From an uncultured Actinomycetota bacterium (GTDB taxonomy: Bacteria > Actinomycetota > Actinomycetes > CAVWCF01), in the NCBI GenBank assembly GCA_963753435.1, contig CAVWCF010000001.1, forward strand, positions 1,280,001-1,344,000: a stretch of DNA of 64,000 nt, read 5' to 3'. Of this stretch, positions 22,097-32,109 are shown piece by piece (position 1 is the stretch's first letter; every line of letters starts with the position of its first letter). The notes below the pieces were generated by a model. That model was not told the origin of the DNA and did not search any database. It saw nothing but the letters and a program-made list of their open reading frames with translations. The position numbers were made by a program, and so were the translations under genes.

Positions 22097-22170
<74 letters not shown>

Positions 22171-22193
22171 CGATGTCGAGTAGCGCAGCGATC

Positions 22194-22649
22194 TCAATCG
22201 CTCGCGACTTCGCGCAGCATCTTTCCTAGCTGGGCATAGCGCTGCGCGCCGAGGCGCTCGGCGTAGCGCTCCTCGACCCGGGCCACGGCCTCCTCGAACC
22301 GAGCGTTCAACTCATTCCCACGCCCCGACCTTCGGACCAGCCAGGCCCGCCCGTCTGCGGGATCGGGCGTCCGCTTGATCAAACCCTCAGCTTCCAGCCC
22401 TTCGATCGCTTCGGCCATCGCCTGCTTGCTGATGCCGGCGCGATCAGCAAGGTCCTGCTGCCGGGCACCGGCAGCAGGGATCAGTTGGAGCAACCGGATC
22501 CGCCGCAGCCCCAGATGCGCCAGTTCCTCGGGTAGGACAGCGCCAAGCTCAACAGCGGTACGCGCCTGAACAGCCTCAAGAAGCACCAGCAGATGGTCTG
22601 GCGATGCAGGGTCGATGTCGAACTCCCAGTGGTCAATCTTCTTGACTAA
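22194..22649 (-). CDS. MarR-family transcriptional regulator (start codon uncertain)
   Basis: [15 protein letters not shown]...[17 protein letters not shown] wHTH; divergent from SDR-RCCR operon; first canonical start is GTG at 22586. Confidence 0.85.
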
Positions 22650-22668
22650 AATGGTCAGGTAGGTTGAC
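22632..22668. promoter_or_regulatory. Tandem palindromic operators (putative MarR sites)
   Basis: GTCAATCTTCTTGAC (22632-22646) and GTCAGGTAGGTTGAC (22654-22668), 22 bp apart, overlapping a TTGACT -35-like element. Confidence 0.7.
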
Positions 22669-22700
22669 GATACTCCGGGATCGCGAAGAAGGGGAACGGC

Positions 22701-24344
22701 ATGCGGGTACTTATCGTCGGTTGTGGGCTGGTCGGCAAGGAGTTGGCTCAGCAACTCCGGGCGGATGGCCACCACGTCATCGGCACCACCACGACTCCCG
22801 GCAAGGTCACCGCGCTGCAGCAGGTGTGCGACGACGTTGCCGTGCTCACCGGCGCCGACACCGCGGCCGTGCACGCCGCCGCCAAGGACGTCGACGCGAT
22901 CGTGGTAACCGCCGGTCCCGCCGCCGCCCAGGCCATGACGGTCGAGCAACGGCAGAAGACCTACCGCCGTGTCCTTGTCGACACCGCCGAGTCGGTGTCG
23001 AGTGTGCCCGGCGACCCCTACCTCGTGATGCTGTCATCCCTGTCGGTCTACGGGGACGCGGCCAACCACCTGGACGTCATCGACGAGTCCAGCCCCCTGT
23101 CAGACAGCGAGGACCCAAGCCCGGCCATGTTCCAAGAGGCGGAGCGCACCTACCGCAACGCCGCCGCGGATCGGCTGGCGATCTTCCGCTGCGCCGACAT
23201 CACCGGTGGCGAGGATCCGCCGATCATGGACAAGCTGCGCATGGCCCATCAGGTCTTGGGTGGTTCGGTGCCGTTCCACGACGAGGCGCTCTTCTACCGC
23301 GTCCACATGCTCGATGTGGTCGGAGCCGTGAAGTACGCCCTCGACCGCCGCTTCACCGGCACCTACAACCTCACCCACGCCGAGGTGCCGCCGCCCATGC
23401 AGCCGTACTTCGATGCCCTGTGCGCCCTGGACGGCCTGCCGCCGCTGCAGTACCGCAACGAGTTGACGGCACCTACCAAGCCGGTATCCGTGGACGCCCT
23501 GCTGGCCACTGGCTTCACCCTCGCCCACACGCAGGTTGAGGAGATGCCGGCCGCGGACGCGGTCGCACCGCCGAGCGCACTCACCGGCATCGACCGGACG
23601 GGCCGAGAGATGGTCACGGCCGTTCTCGATCGACTCATCTCGGAACTGGAACTCACTGAGGAAACATCTGCGGACGGCCAGCCCGTGCTGCCGATCACCG
23701 CAGTCGGTGGCGTCAAGGACGGGCAGCGAATCGGCGAGTTCCGGGTGTTCTCCCGCCCGGGTGGTCCCCGCGTCGTCTACAGCGCGCTCTCAATCGACGA
23801 CTTCGGCATGGACACCCACCAGGTCTACGCATTCACCGGCGCGGACAGTGCGGTACCGCACCTGTTCGTCGACACCGCGATCTCGCCCAACACCGATGGC
23901 ACGTTCCACTTCGGCCTGGACCTGGTTGCGCGGGTCGATCTGGCCGCTTCCTTCGACTACACGCAGGCCGTGTACGGAGAACTCACCGACGTCCGGGGCG
24001 ACGCCCTAGCCACACCCGGCGTCCTGCCGGTCCCGTCGCTCGGCCCGTTGCAGTGGTCGCTGCGCTCACCCTGGATGCTCGCAGCCATCGCCGCGCCCGG
24101 TGACCTGAAAGCGCTCGCTCCCGCGGTGGATGCCTACGTTGACCAGTGGCTGAACCTGGTCAAGTCGGGGCTGCCGGAGGCCGCGGCCGCCGACGCGCAG
24201 TGGCAGAACGTCGCTGAGCGCGACCGACGCAATCGCGCCGCAATCTTCTCCCCCGCGGCCAACCCGGTCTGGTTCCTGCTGGACCGGCTGGTGGGCGCCG
24301 AGCAGTCGGCCGCCATGCGGGCGCTGCTTACCGCGCAGGACTGA
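22701..24344 (+). CDS. Fusion of atypical NAD(P)-binding SDR and RCCR-like (ferredoxin-dependent bilin reductase fold) domain
   Basis: N-term VLIVGCGLVG Rossmann motif, SSLSVYG; C-term VPHLFVD...LDLVARVDL....DY...SLRSPW...ERDR...NP....DRLVG.E resembles RCCR motifs as remembered. Confidence 0.7.
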   Translation: MRVLIVGCGLVGKELAQQLRADGHHVIGTTTTPGKVTALQQVCDDVAVLTGADTAAVHAAAKDVDAIVVTAGPAAAQAMTVEQRQKTYRRVLVDTAESVSSVPGDPYLVMLSSLSVYGDAANHLDVIDESSPLSDSEDPSPAMFQEAERTYRNAAADRLAIFRCADITGGEDPPIMDKLRMAHQVLGGSVPFHDEALFYRVHMLDVVGAVKYALDRRFTGTYNLTHAEVPPPMQPYFDALCALDGLPPLQYRNELTAPTKPVSVDALLATGFTLAHTQVEEMPAADAVAPPSALTGIDRTGREMVTAVLDRLISELELTEETSADGQPVLPITAVGGVKDGQRIGEFRVFSRPGGPRVVYSALSIDDFGMDTHQVYAFTGADSAVPHLFVDTAISPNTDGTFHFGLDLVARVDLAASFDYTQAVYGELTDVRGDALATPGVLPVPSLGPLQWSLRSPWMLAAIAAPGDLKALAPAVDAYVDQWLNLVKSGLPEAAAADAQWQNVAERDRRNRAAIFSPAANPVWFLLDRLVGAEQSAAMRALLTAQD

Positions 24345-24345
24345 A

Positions 24346-25215
24346 GTGCGGCGCGGACCCGCTGACGGAGACTGGGTCGCAAGCCCACTACGGGACAACT
24401 GGTACCAGTCCAGTTCCTATTGGGCCTCGACGTTCGGCCTCGTCACCACCGTGGACGAGGACGGCCAGACCAACGTTGCTCCGTACCAACTGTCGTTCCC
24501 GTTCGAAGTGATCGGCGGGCGCGCGGTGCTGTTGATATCGCGCCCGGACTCAAACACGGCGCGCAACCTGCGCCGTACCGGCGTGTGCGCCATCAACTAC
24601 GTGGAGGCCAAGCGCAAGGAGCTCAAGCGCATCGTCGCTCTCGGCTTCCCTGGTCAGACAACGGCGGAGAAGAGCCCAGACAACCCGTACTCACTGACCG
24701 GCAGCCCAACTCCCGGTCGGTCGCCCGACGGCCGGCGGTTCCCCCATCTGCTCCAAGAGGCGTTCCAGGTATACGAGTGCACGTGGGACACCGAACAGCC
24801 GCTGCACGCCGACCAACCGGCGCCGGCCTACTTCGTGCTGCGGCTGGACGGGATCCTGCTTCGGGAGCGGTGGGCCAAGAACCTGGAGGACGGGGGCCGG
24901 GCAATGCCCCGGCTGCCAATCACGTACGGGTTCCGCGGGGGCACCAGATTCTGGTTCGCCAAGGTGCGCAAGCCGTTCTGGATCGACACCCCCACCGATC
25001 GTGGGCCCAAAGAGGAGGCGATCCTCTACGAGGCCAACCGAATCGACCCGGACGTCCGGTTCACCCGGGAGGCGTGCCAGCAGTTGACGGGAGTGCCGCG
25101 ACCGTTTCTGAAGATGGCGCTGAAAGGCATCGTCAAGAAGGCCAAGGAACGTGGGCTGACCGAGGTCGACGTCGACTTCGTCCGCGAAGTCGACGAGCAG
25201 CGCCGGGCCGGCTGA
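24346..25215 (+). CDS. Flavin-reductase-like split-barrel protein with C-terminal PCP_red-like domain
   Basis: LVTTVDEDGQTNVAPY, SNTARNLRRTGVCAINY, YEC; C-term FTREACQQLTGVPRPFLKMALKGIVKKAKERGLTEVD. Confidence 0.7.
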   Translation: MRRGPADGDWVASPLRDNWYQSSSYWASTFGLVTTVDEDGQTNVAPYQLSFPFEVIGGRAVLLISRPDSNTARNLRRTGVCAINYVEAKRKELKRIVALGFPGQTTAEKSPDNPYSLTGSPTPGRSPDGRRFPHLLQEAFQVYECTWDTEQPLHADQPAPAYFVLRLDGILLRERWAKNLEDGGRAMPRLPITYGFRGGTRFWFAKVRKPFWIDTPTDRGPKEEAILYEANRIDPDVRFTREACQQLTGVPRPFLKMALKGIVKKAKERGLTEVDVDFVREVDEQRRAG

Positions 25216-25226
25216 ACTAGAAGCCG

Positions 25227-26645
25227 TCAGCCGGCAGGTCGCCATCTCGATACGGCACAGGTTCCGGTGGCGCTGCGTCGGGCCTGTTGCAGTTCCACCT
25301 CGGCGCCGCTGGCGTCGGCGAGGCTGCGCACGATGGCCAGCCCGAGCCCGGATCCGGTCCGTTCGGACGTGCCGCGCCAGAAGCGGTCGAAGGCATGCGC
25401 CCGCTCCGCCGAGCTCAATCCGGCGCCGGCATCCTCGACCGATACCTCGATCCAGTCACCTGCTCGTTTCAAGCCGACGTGCAGTTCGCTGTCCGGAGGT
25501 GCCGCCTCAAGCGCGTTGTCGAGGTAGTTGTCGAGCACCTGGCCGACGCCATCGGACACCGACCACACCAGCCACGAGCCCGCAGCGTCGGCGGTGTCGG
25601 TGGTGATGGACACACCCCGCTCAGCCGCCAACGCCTCCCAATCGCTGACGCGCTGCCGAACCGCCACGGCCACGTCTACCTGCTCTCGCTCCTGATCACC
25701 GCGGTCGGCGCGGGCCAAGGCGAGGAGTCCTTCGACGAGTCGCTGCATGCGTTCGACGTCACCGGCCATCTGCTCCAGGGCTTGCGCCGACGCCTCCGGG
25801 TCGCGGTCAGCAAGTTCCTGGGCTGTCTCGATCCGCATGCGCAGAGCCGTCAGCGGACTACGCAGCTGATGGGAGGCGTCGCCGGCGAAGTTGCGCTGCG
25901 CGGCCACGACGGTCTCCACCCGTTGGGCCATCGTGTTGAAGGATTGAGCGACGTCGCCGAGTTCACCAATCGCCTGTGGATCAACTCGGGCACCAAGATC
26001 GCCACCGGCAATCGCCTCCGAGGTCTGCCGCAGGCGGCTGAGTGGCTCGGTCACAAGCCGCGCGATCAGAACCGCGATAAACGCTGCCGCCACCAGGGTG
26101 ATGAGGGCAACGACCAGCAGTCCGCGGACCCGTTCGTCGACGGCCTGGTCCACCTCCGCAGCCGGATAGGTGATGCGCACTGTTCCCAAGATGTCCGCGC
26201 CGGAGCGCACCGGAACGGCCACGTAGAGCAGGTCCTCACCGGCAGAGTCGGACGGCCGCTGGCCCGCAACCGCCTCCCCGCTGAGGGCAGCCGCTATCTC
26301 CGGGCGATTGGTGTAGTCCTGCCCCAGGTCGGTGCCATCGGAAGTGACCACCGCAATGCCGGCCGCGTCGGTGACCACCACGCGCGCACCGGTCGCCGTG
26401 GAGTACTCCGACACCACCGAGGTCACCTCGTTCAGCCCTGCGGGGTCGCCACCGCCCAGTACGTCCTCGGCCTGGCCGGCGATTGTGAACGCGTCTCGCT
26501 GCAACCCGGTGACGATCCGATCGCGTTCGACACCACGAAGATGCGACGCAAGCGGGATGTTCTGGACCAACAGCACCGTCGCGGTGAACGCGACCATCAC
26601 TGCCACCAGTACCCATCGAAACGATGCCCGGCGCCAACTGCTCAT
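25227..26645 (-). CDS. HAMP-domain sensor histidine kinase
   Basis: DASHQLRSPLT, NYLDNAL, DAGAG, GSGLGLAIV. Confidence 0.93.
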   Translation of the reverse strand: MSSWRRASFRWVLVAVMVAFTATVLLVQNIPLASHLRGVERDRIVTGLQRDAFTIAGQAEDVLGGGDPAGLNEVTSVVSEYSTATGARVVVTDAAGIAVVTSDGTDLGQDYTNRPEIAAALSGEAVAGQRPSDSAGEDLLYVAVPVRSGADILGTVRITYPAAEVDQAVDERVRGLLVVALITLVAAAFIAVLIARLVTEPLSRLRQTSEAIAGGDLGARVDPQAIGELGDVAQSFNTMAQRVETVVAAQRNFAGDASHQLRSPLTALRMRIETAQELADRDPEASAQALEQMAGDVERMQRLVEGLLALARADRGDQEREQVDVAVAVRQRVSDWEALAAERGVSITTDTADAAGSWLVWSVSDGVGQVLDNYLDNALEAAPPDSELHVGLKRAGDWIEVSVEDAGAGLSSAERAHAFDRFWRGTSERTGSGLGLAIVRSLADASGAEVELQQARRSATGTCAVSRWRPAG

Positions 26646-27328
26646 TGCGGCGTACCCAACCGAAAGCCGACGCCGCGAACCGCCTCGACCCAGCTCGGAT
26701 CTCCAAGCTTGCGCCGGATGGCTGCCACGTGTGCGTCGACTGTCTTCGTCGGCCCATACCAGTGGGCATCCCAAACGTGTTCCAGGATCTCGGTCCGGCG
26801 CCGCAGCGCACCAGGATCCTCGGCGAGGAAGGCGAGCACCCCGAACTCCTTCGGGGTCATGGCGACTTCGGCGCCGTCGAGGAAGACGCGTTGGGTGCGG
26901 CGGTCGATCGCCAATCGACCCAGCTCCTGTTGTGTCGACTGCTCCGCCAGCGGTGCCGACCCCGACCCTGCCCGCGCCCGTCGGGATACGGCTCGAACCC
27001 GGGCCACGAGTTCCCGCAACCCGAAGGGCTTCACCAGGTAGTCGTCCGCGCCCAGCTCCAGCGCCAACACTCGGTCGAACTCCTCAGACCTGGCGCTGAC
27101 CACCACGATCGGGACGTCCGAAGTCCGCCGGATCTCCCGAGCCACGTCTTGACCGTCAAGGTCGGGTAGGCCCAGATCGAGCAGGACGACATCCGGCGTT
27201 GCAGCTGCGACAGCTGCCAGCCCACTGCGACCGTCCCGAACGTGCTGGACCTCGAAACCGGCCGACTCCAGGCCGGCCACGGTTGACGCCGCAATCCCGG
27301 AGTCGTCCTCCACCAGCAGAACTCGCAC
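26642..27328 (-). CDS. OmpR/PhoB-family response regulator
   Basis: LLVEDD, DLGLPD, GADDYLVKPF, wHTH VRGVGFR. Confidence 0.95.
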   Translation of the reverse strand: MRVLLVEDDSGIAASTVAGLESAGFEVQHVRDGRSGLAAVAAATPDVVLLDLGLPDLDGQDVAREIRRTSDVPIVVVSARSEEFDRVLALELGADDYLVKPFGLRELVARVRAVSRRARAGSGSAPLAEQSTQQELGRLAIDRRTQRVFLDGAEVAMTPKEFGVLAFLAEDPGALRRRTEILEHVWDAHWYGPTKTVDAHVAAIRRKLGDPSWVEAVRGVGFRLGTPQ

Positions 27329-27378
27329 CCACACATGATGCCGGTGCCATGGGCCCATCCCTGGTCACGGCCGCGGGT

Positions 27379-27417
27379 TCCTGGGCCGAATCTTGGGAAT
27401 TCTTGGACGTTTCTTGG
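27379..27417. promoter_or_regulatory. Direct-repeat array (putative response-regulator binding site)
   Basis: TC(C/T)TGG at 27379, 27391, 27401, 27412 (10-12 bp spacing) in the divergent intergenic region. Confidence 0.6.
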
Positions 27418-27501
27418 ACAAGCGGCACCCAGAACCACGCCGATGCATCCATAGCGTCGGCACTGCCGATCGAAACACCCGATGGCAGAGGAGGAAGACC
27501 A

Positions 27502-27936
27502 ATGGATGCAAAGCTCGCAGTGGGCCTGTCCGTAGCGGGGATCTTGGTGGCAGCCGGTTCGGCTGCCGCGGTCAACGCCCGGGTCCTTGAGTCACAGGAC
27601 GACTCACCAATCGGAAGCGCCGAGGACTTCGTGGTGCAGACCGATTCACCGTCACCGCAGCCGACGCCGACACTGACCGAGGTCATCACGATCCCGCCCA
27701 GCCCGGCGCCGTCCGCGACACCCAGCACCGCAGCGAGCAGCCAGTCGACTCGTTCAGCGGCCCCAAGTTCTTCACCGAGCCCCAGCGCCAGCGCCTCCGA
27801 CGACGACCGCTACGACGACAACGGCGGCGACCGCGACGACTCCGACTCCGACGACGACAGCTATGACGACAACGGCGGCGACCGCGACGACTCCGATGAC
27901 GACAACTCCGGGTCCGGTTCCCGAGACGACGACTGA
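27502..27936 (+). CDS. Secreted low-complexity protein with Asp-rich tail
   Basis: GAGGAGG RBS; signal peptide-like N-terminus (AAA/VN); Ser/Pro/Thr linker; DD(R/S)YDDNGGDRDDS repeats. Confidence 0.8.
   Translation: MDAKLAVGLSVAGILVAAGSAAAVNARVLESQDDSPIGSAEDFVVQTDSPSPQPTPTLTEVITIPPSPAPSATPSTAASSQSTRSAAPSSSPSPSASASDDDRYDDNGGDRDDSDSDDDSYDDNGGDRDDSDDDNSGSGSRDDD
27795..27896 (+). repeat. 51-bp coding tandem repeat, 2 copies
   Basis: ctccgacgacgac(c/a)gcta(c/t)gacgacaacggcggcgaccgcgacgactccga twice. Confidence 0.9.
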
Positions 27937-27947
27937 GAAGGACGGAA

Positions 27948-28310
27948 ATGGCACTCGGCAGGTTGAAGTTCCGGCGGCGACCGCACCCGGCGCGCGGCGC
28001 CCGGATCATCACCGGCGGGATGTCTGCGGCGGCAATGATCGCGCTGTCGGGTGCCATGACCAGCCAAGTGGTGGCGACCGCCACAGCGACACAGCCCGTA
28101 TCAGCGGAACTGGAGCCGGCGCCGACAGCGACTCCGGCCGCGCCGGAGCCGCAACACGTGGTCATTGTGCGCAAGTACGTGTACGCGCCGACGCCCTCAG
28201 CTCCGGCAGCCAAACCGTTGCCACAAGCCGTGACCGCACGGGCGGGCGCTCCTGCGCCCGCCAACCCGGCCCCGCCGGCGGACGCCACCTCGGGCGGTTC
28301 CGGTGGCTGA
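27948..28310 (+). CDS. Small exported Pro/Ala-rich protein, candidate flavinylation substrate
   Basis: Basic N-terminus plus hydrophobic helix; ends DATSGGSGG; directly upstream of apbE. Confidence 0.7.
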   Translation: MALGRLKFRRRPHPARGARIITGGMSAAAMIALSGAMTSQVVATATATQPVSAELEPAPTATPAAPEPQHVVIVRKYVYAPTPSAPAAKPLPQAVTARAGAPAPANPAPPADATSGGSGG

Positions 28311-29249
28311 GACGGCACAGACGTCGGTGGTTCGCGCGACGTTCACGCAGGTCATGGGCGGCAGCGCGTCCGCCGTGGTCGTGGGACCGGACTCCGCAGT
28401 CGGTCCCGCGCCAGCGGAGTTGCTCGCCCGGGCCGAAGCCCGGCTGCGGGAACTGGAAAGCAAGTGGACGCGCTTCGATGCCCGCAGCGAGTTGTCCCAA
28501 CTGGCCAGCGCCAATGGTCTCCCGGTCGCGGTCTCAGCGGACACCCGCGCGCTCGTCGCCGCCATGGCCGACGCCTGGGCCATGACCGGGGGCCTCGTTG
28601 ATGCATCCGTCCTGCCCGCAGTCCTGAGCGCCGGGTACACCAGGAGCGCGCTGGACTCCCAAGTGGCCGCCAGCCAGCCGAAGTGGGCGTGGGTGGGGGC
28701 CGATTGGCGGCAGGTCGTGATCGACGAATCCGCCGGCACGGTGACGCTTCCCCCCGGTTTGGCGCCGGACCCCGGCGGTATCGGTAAGGGACTGGCCGCA
28801 GATCTGGTCGTGGCCGAATTGCTGCAGGCCGGCGCAGCGGGCGCGCTCATCGAGATCGGCGGCGATCTGCGCTGTGGCGGCCAGCCGCCTCGGGTAGACG
28901 GATGGTCAGTGGACGTGGACCACCCGCTGCACGACGGATCGTTGACGAACGTGACCATCCATGAAGGTGCCGTCGCCACCTCAAGCATCATGAAGCGGCG
29001 ATTCGTGAACGGATCCGGCAAGCCGAGCCATCACCTCATCGGCCGCGACGGCCAGCCCGCCAACCACGGTCTCGCTACGTGCACCGTGGTCATCGGCACC
29101 GGCGTGTTGGCCGAGACGCTGGCCAAGGTCCCGATGCTGGCCGGTGAGGAGTCCGGCCTAGCGCTGCTGGAGCAATACGAAGTGCCGGCGCTGGTGGTCC
29201 GGCTGGACGGGACTGTTGCCAAGACAACCGGTTGGGGGCGAGTAGGGCG

Positions 29250-29253
<4 letters not shown>
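28303..29253 (+). CDS. apbE: FAD:protein FMN transferase ApbE
   Basis: MG, SELS, DPGGIGKGLAAD, EIGGDL, VATSS, HHLI. Confidence 0.92.

Positions 29254-32109
<2,856 letters not shown>

What the first reader, a model, noticed from the sequence alone, without database searches (positions are those of the whole stretch)
22194..25215. Candidate bacterial chlorophyll/bilin catabolism operon: MarR + SDR-RCCR fusion + flavin reductase-PCP_red fusion
Seen: a divergent MarR with twin operators and two closely spaced genes right after tRNA-Pro. Known: RCCR is the ferredoxin-dependent bilin reductase of plant chlorophyll breakdown; PCP_red is the C-terminal domain of ChlB/BchB; some atypical SDRs act on tetrapyrroles (biliverdin reductase B, divinyl reductase BciA). 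Inference: tetrapyrrole-linked domains in both genes of one ligand-controlled operon, with no photosynthesis genes in the window, suggest a system that reduces, degrades or detoxifies chlorophyll-derived or other linear tetrapyrroles. I know of no described system with this architecture.
Basis: partly seen in the sequence, partly recalled or inferred. Interest (0 to 1): 0.88.

Follow-up and report, generated by a model that had tools for sequence, protein, structure and literature searches.

The report
Bacterial reductase operon for opened chlorophyll
A non-photosynthetic actinobacterium carries a repressor-linked gene pair whose main protein fuses an NAD(P)-binding reductase domain to a domain shaped like the plant enzyme that detoxifies opened chlorophyll, and it likely serves as an accessory step of an undescribed bacterial pathway that would break down chlorophyll-type pigments.

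Summary
Gene A (547 aa) joins an atypical SDR to a domain with the fold of plant red chlorophyll catabolite reductase (RCCR; Z 22). The twin GTCA-N7-TGAC operator follows the MarR: 10 of 10 loci with it, 0 of 10 without. Gene B is a flavin-binding barrel; its PCP_red-like tail stays below the Pfam cut-off and says little about substrate.

The unit is not self-contained. All 32 genomes with A's SDR also hold RCCR genes and one Rieske oxygenase. Among 301 Actinomycetes these mark the same 10 genomes, 9 with the SDR. In two genomes MarR-A-B sits inside the Rieske/RCCR cluster; here that cluster is 265 kb away. B is optional (10 of 32 genomes).

Best reading (0.45): an inducible accessory reductase step in bacterial catabolism of ring-opened chlorophyll derivatives. 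No substrate is shown; the oxygenase lacks the PaO domain and no stay-green dechelatase was found. My literature searches found no description. The scan noted this operon (e1-3588279) and the wider cluster before on other genomes.

The parts
22194..22628 (-). MarR-family repressor. The frame has no canonical start where expected (TGG at 22628-22626); the next in-frame GTG is at 22586.
   Evidence: PF12802/PF01047 above cut-off; 43-58% identical MarR divergent from A in 8 of 13 fused GTDB loci and in L084; frame read
22632..22646 (.). Operator 1, GTCA-N7-TGAC
   Evidence: Sequence. Motif upstream of A in 10 of 10 loci with the MarR (twin in 8), 0 of 10 without. MarR binding is inferred.
22654..22668 (.). 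Operator 2, GTCA-N7-TGAC, 22 bp after the first
   Evidence: the only twin site in the genome
22701..24344 (+). Gene A, 547 aa SDR-RCCR-like fusion
   Evidence: (60 homologues)
22701..23540 (+). Atypical SDR domain (aa 1-280): GxGxxG, no acidic residue after strand 2, no YxxxK motif
   Evidence: YxxxK in 0 of 17 aligned members
23586..24341 (+). RCCR/FDBR-fold domain (aa 296-547): first catalytic acid kept (D391), second acid replaced by Asn (N521)
24346..25215 (+). Gene B, 289 aa flavin-reductase-like split barrel with a helical tail
   Evidence: (391 homologues)
25063..25188 (+). PCP_red-like three-helix tail of B (aa 240-281), below the family cut-off
22097..22171 (+). tRNA-Pro(CGG): context only. 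The unit lies directly behind it here, and no att-like repeat was found.
   Evidence: In 23 other metallophosphoesterase loci (21 with the tRNA) neither this MarR nor A follows within about 1.5 kb.

Best explanation
MarR-A-B is a repressor-linked gene pair that co-occurs with a conserved Rieske-oxygenase/RCCR gene cluster and likely acts as an inducible accessory reductase step in bacterial breakdown of ring-opened chlorophyll derivatives. Steps: (1, inferred) MarR sits on the twin GTCA-N7-TGAC boxes, represses both divergent promoters and is released by a pathway intermediate. (2, inferred) The core cluster elsewhere in the genome (RCCR - lipase-type hydrolase - Rieske oxygenase - RCCR-like - double barrel - classical SDR - membrane protein - decarboxylase-like; C1:1,563,861-1,571,141) imports, de-esterifies and oxidatively opens a chlorin, as PAO does in plants, and reduces the red, phototoxic product. 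(3, fold shown, chemistry inferred) In protein A the RCCR-fold domain binds the linear tetrapyrrole. It keeps one of the two acids, so it may be a pocket or proton donor more than a stand-alone ferredoxin-driven reductase. The Tyr/Lys-less SDR delivers hydride from NAD(P)H to a methine bridge or C=C bond, as ChuY does for anaerobilin. (4, weakest) B is an optional flavin-dependent helper; no binding to A is claimed. (5, inferred) Neighbouring amidases, aldehyde dehydrogenases, CoA-transferases, hydratases and lyases take pyrrole fragments into central metabolism.
For: RCCR fold. The other known enzyme families with this fold, RCCR and coproporphyrinogen oxidase, are tetrapyrrole-binding like the FDBRs (PMC13193486 passage). 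The SDR is tied to an RCCR-type domain in 34 of 34 GTDB loci: 13 fused, 2 broken, 4 split into adjacent ORFs, 15 unfused directly behind a PF06405 gene. 32 of 32 genomes have the Rieske orthologue (E <= 1e-40) and PF06405 over cut-off. In 301 Actinomycetes: Rieske 10, PF06405 the same 10, SDR 9 of those 10, B 4 of those 10 and none outside. MarR-A-B lies about 14 kb from the Rieske gene inside one cluster in G009 and G010. The same domain family is fused to a Rieske oxygenase (P0239) and, in reverse order, to NAD(P)-binding domains (P0195 from a eukaryote protein set, P0285). The clusters also hold a hydrolase with weak chlorophyllase hits (4 of 6 members, best E 2e-5), an esterase of the plant MES family that includes pheophorbidase (5hk8, E 3e-10), an ABC importer, a sortase and neocarzinostatin-type proteins. 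The genome has no heme oxygenase to make biliverdin.
Against: No substrate, activity or induction is shown. The Rieske protein lacks the PaO domain; its closest solved relatives act on saxitoxin precursors, methylxanthines and dicamba. No stay-green dechelatase was found (uncontrolled). The hydrolase is closer to PET hydrolases than to chlorophyllase, and the MES-type esterase scores higher with hydroxynitrile lyases and SABP2 than with pheophorbidase. Neither RCCR type tied to this SDR keeps both acids: the fused type has D/N, the PF06405 neighbours V or A/D. No ferredoxin or oxygenase reductase gene was recognised in the clusters read. G102 has the core without this SDR, so A is dispensable. 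One myxobacterial genome has a 40% Rieske relative without PF06405. Two SDR paralogues in this genome (41-45%) have no RCCR neighbour. Positive genomes are kin (five families in the class sample) and overlap between the 32- and 301-genome sets, so the tallies are not independent trials.
Confidence: 0.45

Rival explanations
1. Same chemistry, other pigment: the system consumes heme- or phycobiliprotein-derived bilins (biliverdin, phycocyanobilin) or porphyrins rather than chlorophyll catabolites, and A is a biliverdin-reductase-like enzyme.
For: FDBR-fold enzymes act on biliverdin; the ESM atlas puts A's domain equally near PF05996 and PF06405 clusters; HY2 is the next profile hit (E 0.098). 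The genome holds a PF05996 gene too. Sortase and surface proteins recall heme-capture systems (recalled analogy).
Against: No heme oxygenase in the genome. The constant partner is a Rieske oxygenase plus an ester hydrolase, the pairing that plants use on chlorins. RCCR is the best structural and profile match.
Confidence: 0.2
2. The RCCR fold has been recruited to a non-tetrapyrrole substrate (an alkaloid, purine-like or other N-heterocycle). The likeness to chlorophyll breakdown is a coincidence of common catabolic families.
For: Closest solved Rieske relatives act on alkaloids and xanthines. Hydrolases, SDRs, CoA-transferases and amidases are generic. Catalytic acids are altered. Nocardioides degrades other heterocycles such as lumichrome (PMC12746152 passages).
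Against: No enzyme of this fold with a non-tetrapyrrole substrate is named in the passages read. Small genomes of 1.0-2.2 Mb keep 2-4 PF06405 matches. The lumichrome cluster uses P450, xanthine oxidase and a two-subunit dioxygenase, none recognised in these clusters. No molybdenum hydroxylase or ring-cleavage dioxygenase was recognised in the loci read.
Confidence: 0.2
3. One reading: A and B form a self-contained two-component reductase, B passing electrons from flavin to the RCCR domain in place of ferredoxin through its PCP_red tail.
For: B starts one base after A; the pair recurs in 2 GTDB and 5 metagenome loci. In the Actinomycetes sample B occurs only in genomes with the RCCR system (4 of 301). 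Another FDBR gene in this genome (L003) ends in a short tail that resembles B's by eye (not scored).
Against: B was not found in 22 of 32 genomes with the SDR; 75 of 80 B loci show no A (61 of the 80 are longer than 4 kb). Three of the four positives are one genus.
Confidence: 0.1

Closest known systems
Plant red chlorophyll catabolite reductase (RCCR/ACD2; PF06405; PDB 2zxk, 3aga, 3agb), paired with pheophorbide a oxygenase (PAO)
   Same: Fold over 238 residues (Z 22.0, 18% identity); acid at the first catalytic position (D391 against the Glu of RCCR's PNFVVE); partnership with a Rieske oxygenase of the VanA_C type.
   Different: Heterotrophic bacterium; fused to an SDR; second acid is Asn; no PF06405 hit for A's domain itself; the oxygenase lacks PF08417; several RCCR-fold paralogues per genome.
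Ferredoxin-dependent bilin reductases (PcyA, HY2, PebA/B) and pre-PcyA of non-photosynthetic bacteria (PMC10151467)
   Same: Fold family; occurrence in heterotrophic bacteria.
   Different: Pre-PcyA clusters hold bilin-binding globins, V4R and Fe-S proteins (abstract passage); none was recognised here. The context is catabolic.
ChuY anaerobilin reductase (PMC10114669) and biliverdin reductase B
   Same: NADPH-dependent reduction of a ring-opened tetrapyrrole after a ring-opening enzyme is the role proposed for A's SDR. Their status as atypical SDRs without the Tyr/Lys pair is recalled.
   Different: Neither appeared among the listed matches; the best hits are sugar epimerases and the uncharacterised 3gpi/3ius type. 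It works like them at most; it is not shown to be a member.
MTH152-type FMN-binding split barrels (1eje, flavoredoxin, NbaA) with the PF08369 tail of BchB/ChlB
   Same: Barrel fold of B; weak PF08369 match.
   Different: 12-20% identity; function unknown; mostly found away from RCCR genes.

Membership tests
RCCR/FDBR structural superfamily (A, aa 296-547) | Alpha/beta/alpha sandwich of RCCR | tested here: met
   2zxk Z 22.0, rmsd 3.1, 238 aligned; profile E 0.0016
RCCR (PF06405) | Score over the Pfam cut-off | tested here: not met
   No hit for A or its domain; some relatives pass or come near
RCCR (PF06405) | First catalytic acid (Glu154; numbering recalled) | tested here: met
   D391 in 14 of 14 fused proteins; D/E in 115 of 126 wider relatives with a residue there
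RCCR (PF06405) | Second catalytic acid (Asp291; numbering recalled) | tested here: not met
   N521 in 13 of 13 fused proteins with a residue, Asp in 111 of 131 wider relatives. The column is placed through; one search aligns that Asp two residues earlier (A519, also not acidic here).
RCCR (PF06405) | Ferredoxin-dependent reduction of RCC to pFCC | not testable with these tools
   Needs an assay
Extended SDR (sugar epimerase type) | Catalytic YxxxK | tested here: not met
   0 of 17 members; S140 and F144 invariant at the matching positions
Biliverdin reductase B / ChuY / BciA | Closest sequence or structure match | tested here: inconclusive
   Not among the listed rows, which are crowded by other SDRs
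PCP_red (PF08369), tail of B | Score over cut-off 32.5 | tested here: not met
   14.7-18.2 bits; 13 of 53 members at E <= 0.05; a distant relative passes
PCP_red (PF08369), tail of B | Fold match to the BchB C-terminal domain | tested here: inconclusive
   Three helices predicted; Foldseek list filled by the barrel; wide search unfinished
Plant PAO/phyllobilin pathway | Rieske oxygenase with PaO domain (PF08417) | tested here: not met
   Rieske + VanA_C only; no PF08417 in the genome, control rang
Plant PAO/phyllobilin pathway | Stay-green Mg-dechelatase (PF12638) | tested here: inconclusive
   No match, but no control genome rang
Plant PAO/phyllobilin pathway | Chlorophyllase/pheophytinase-type dephytylase | tested here: inconclusive
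   Ser hydrolase; PF12740 in 6 of 6, PF07224 weak in 4 of 6; PDB hits are PET hydrolases
Maleate isomerase / maleamate pathway (cluster neighbour) | Two catalytic cysteines (role recalled) | tested here: not met
   Met and Gly at these positions in 11 of 11 proteins
MarR regulon | Palindromic operator that tracks the regulator | tested here: met
   10 of 10 loci with MarR, 0 of 10 without; binding itself untested

The most novel reading that the evidence does not exclude
Soil and aquatic actinobacteria (and some myxobacteria) have a dedicated pathway that opens and consumes chlorophyll derivatives: a Rieske oxygenase, several RCCR-fold proteins with split catalytic residues, and an SDR-RCCR fusion that reduces the opened pigment with NAD(P)H instead of ferredoxin. 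It would be a bacterial counterpart, and possible source, of the plant PAO/RCCR pair.
Probability: 0.35. Interest if true: 0.92.

Novelty: new variant of a known kind. Interest (0 to 1): 0.74.

Why it matters
How microbes dispose of the chlorophyll and phyllobilins released by leaf fall and algal death has no described gene pathway that my searches found. This operon and its parent cluster name the candidate enzymes, the regulator and its operator. Cultured strains carry the unfused form (Nocardioides agri MAH-18, N. caricicola JCM 17686, N. dubius JCM 13008), so the question can be tested directly. An RCCR-fold domain working with an NAD(P)H SDR would be new chemistry for a fold known as ferredoxin- or oxygen-dependent. 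The bacterial families also bear on where plant RCCR came from.

Tried and rejected
Maleate-isomerase reading of the cluster's PF17645 genes (alkylmaleimide to alkylfumarate route): dropped, both cysteines are missing in 11 of 11. Complex of B dimer with A's RCCR domain: no verdict, score 0.02 against a mark of 0.32, no evidence either way. Expression: eight estuary RNA runs held 5-13% of the words; four were laid and gave short contigs near-identical to A and B, but neighbouring genes were covered too and contigs cannot show transcription, so nothing is claimed. Integration at tRNA-Pro: no repeat of the tRNA 3' end in the window and GC is near the window mean; only the variable content of the site is shown. 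A wider MarR regulon: the only other site called intergenic lies at the 3' end of the L7/L12 ribosomal protein gene and is taken as chance. Lumichrome pathway of N. simplex: different enzymes. IsdG-type heme oxygenase reading of the ABM neighbour: motif not recognised by eye. Foldseek on whole A showed only the SDR. Whether the marine genomes that carry B alone hold RCCR genes stayed unchecked, as did source names for the fusion proteins other than P0195. No phylogeny with plant RCCR was built, as no such sequence was in hand.
Full report
Observation. The window comes from a 2.17 Mb, 98% complete genome whose relatives of these genes are mostly actinobacterial. Behind tRNA-Pro lie a MarR gene on the minus strand and genes A (22701-24344) and B (24346-25215) on the plus strand. 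Differences to a close relative fall mainly on third codon positions (94 of 121 in the part of A compared, 39 of 46 in B). The genome has no reaction-centre or nitrogenase/DPOR-type gene and no heme oxygenase, with controls ringing.

Protein A. Residues 1-280 are an SDR. The catalytic YxxxK is absent in 17 of 17 aligned members, and strand 2 ends in T-T/A-T-T/S-x-x-K without an acid; from general SDR knowledge this points to an NADP(H)-using atypical SDR. Residues 296-547 have no Pfam hit. Three lines place them with RCCR: ESM atlas neighbours carry PF05996 and PF06405 (0.94), a 16-sequence profile hits Arabidopsis RCCR at E 0.0016, and the AlphaFold model aligns to 2zxk at Z 22.0 over 238 residues. 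D391 matches RCCR's first acid. The second acid is Asp in 111 of 131 wider relatives but Asn in 13 of 13 SDR-fused proteins; the PF06405 genes that sit beside unfused SDRs show the mirror pattern (Val or Ala at the first site in 19 of 19, Asp at the second in 18 of 18). The profile finds 327 clusters at 50% identity; of the 150 listed most are single-domain.

Operator. GTCA-N7-TGAC occurs twice between MarR and A. I derived the motif from this window, so the shuffle (two sites in 0 of 20,000) is not a fair test. The fair test is other loci: of 20 upstream regions examined, all 10 with the divergent MarR (the window included) carry it, 8 as twins, and none of the 10 without. The twin is unique in this genome, so the regulon looks local.

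Protein B. An FMN-type split barrel with a three-helix tail that matches PF08369 below cut-off. B follows A in 2 of 13 fused GTDB loci, with a distant B-like gene in a third, and in 5 of 80 metagenome loci found with B. The other B loci lie beside central-metabolism genes. B is found in 10 of 32 genomes with the SDR, 8 as close orthologues, and in 4 of 301 Actinomycetes, all among the RCCR carriers, three of one genus. B is therefore a linked but optional partner.

The wider system. The GTDB scan gave 34 loci in 32 genomes: 13 fused, 2 broken, 4 split into adjacent ORFs and 15 unfused SDRs, each directly behind a PF06405 gene. The scan needed exact motifs, so distant SDR paralogues were missed; two of these in this genome have no RCCR neighbour. 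All 32 genomes hold PF06405 over cut-off and an orthologue of a Rieske oxygenase found in this genome at C1:1,567,957. As a control, in 301 Actinomycetes the Rieske gene and PF06405 mark the same 10 genomes and the SDR 9 of them. In 151 genomes of the myxobacterial phylum only the starting genome had PF06405, and one more had a 40% Rieske relative. Positives are related and partly the same genomes in both sets. G038 and G053 are unpublished genomes; they enter only as non-matching rows in the 301- and 31-genome tallies (and as matches, whose two loci I left out). The core order RCCR - hydrolase - Rieske - RCCR-like - double barrel - SDR - membrane protein - PF17645 is whole here and in 3 of 6 other genomes read, partial in 2 and scattered in 1. 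In G010 and G009 MarR-A-B lies in that cluster, about 14 kb from the Rieske gene. Around it are an ABC importer, sortase and surface proteins, an MES-family esterase, amidase, aldehyde dehydrogenases, CoA-transferase, MaoC hydratases, MmgE/PrpD and C-C lyases. The domain family of A also occurs fused to a Rieske oxygenase (P0239) and to NAD(P)-binding domains in two eukaryote-like proteins.

Mechanism. Shown: folds, residues, operator pattern, co-occurrence. Inferred: the core opens a chlorin as PAO does, RCCR-type proteins handle the red product, and A adds an NAD(P)H-driven reduction with its RCCR domain as pocket; B helps in some lineages; downstream genes use the fragments. I give this 0.45, other bilins 0.2, a non-tetrapyrrole substrate 0.2, and a self-contained A-B electron-transfer pair 0.1. 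Against the chlorophyll reading: no PaO domain, no stay-green match, hydrolases that are generic, no recognised electron donor in the clusters, and PF17645 proteins that fail the maleate-isomerase test.

Literature. I read passages of five papers: PMC10151467 (FDBRs in heterotrophs, RCCR-related sequences as outgroup, ChuW/ChuY), PMC9306834 (plant PAO/RCCR pathway), PMC13193486 (the fold's known members bind tetrapyrroles), PMC12746152 (lumichrome pathway) and PMC10114669 (ChuY). Other papers were seen as search listings only. Searches (0 papers) showed no description of this fusion or cluster; 123 was uninformative. The library lacks most subscription papers. I did not open supplements; the trees in the supplement of PMC10151467 may include such bacterial RCCR-like sequences. 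Catalytic residue numbers and the docking role of PCP_red are recalled.

Earlier scan notes. e1-3588279 describes the same operon in another genome; e1-4702347 and e1-2779007 describe the core cluster; e1-2081755 calls flavoproteins with PCP_red tails a reused module. They are unchecked AI notes and not support. e1-2779007 prompted my hydrolase test.

Verdict. A real, conserved and apparently undescribed module with a strong structural link to chlorophyll catabolism and a clear test. The substrate is unproven. New variant of a known kind; interest 0.74.

Noticed in passing
G000 C1:1,555,571-1,586,030 (L039, L040): Core cluster: two RCCR-fold genes, Rieske oxygenase, hydrolase, double barrel, SDR, two Cys-less PF17645 proteins, nitrilase-family amidase, HMG-CoA-lyase-like gene, CoA-transferase III, two aldehyde dehydrogenases, ABC importer, IclR.
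   Followed up: partly
G000 C1:808,567-810,215: Oxygenase paralogue that has lost its Rieske cluster domain but keeps the mononuclear-iron motif, followed by another A-type RCCR-like gene.
   Followed up: no
L003:1390-2274 (G000 C1:506,530-507,414): PF05996 bilin-reductase gene with a short C-terminal tail, last in an operon with pyruvate:ferredoxin oxidoreductase-like (by eye) and dihydroorotate-dehydrogenase-like genes.
   Followed up: partly
G000 C2:126,917-127,774 and C1:894,716-895,561: A lone PF06405 gene behind glutamine synthetase, and a weak further FDBR-like candidate (E 0.005); up to seven such folds in a 2.2 Mb genome.
   Followed up: no
window 22626-22628: MarR has TGG where one contig of a relative (run X4, low depth) reads a GTG start; the protein here may start at 22586 or at a non-canonical codon.
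   Followed up: partly
P0195, P0285, P0239: A-type RCCR-like domains fused to NAD(P)-binding domains in eukaryote-like proteins (one from a eukaryote protein set, with tandem domains) and to a Rieske oxygenase; worth testing in alga-eating protists.
   Followed up: partly
L031:7145-7885, L125:11613-12356 and relatives: Conserved arylmalonate-decarboxylase/maleate-isomerase-fold family without either catalytic cysteine; reaction unknown.
   Followed up: partly
L018 and L022: Frameshifts in gene A; in genomes G002, G014, G018 and G019 the Rieske gene is also in pieces, possibly long-read errors.
   Followed up: no
window 25227-29849: Two-component system, two short secreted-looking ORFs, ApbE flavin transferase and ferric-reductase-like membrane protein next to gene B: a flavinylation-type module, not seen beside A elsewhere.
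   Followed up: no
L021: Record titled Bifidobacterium breve carries the split form closest to other actinobacterial MAGs; the label looks doubtful.
   Followed up: no
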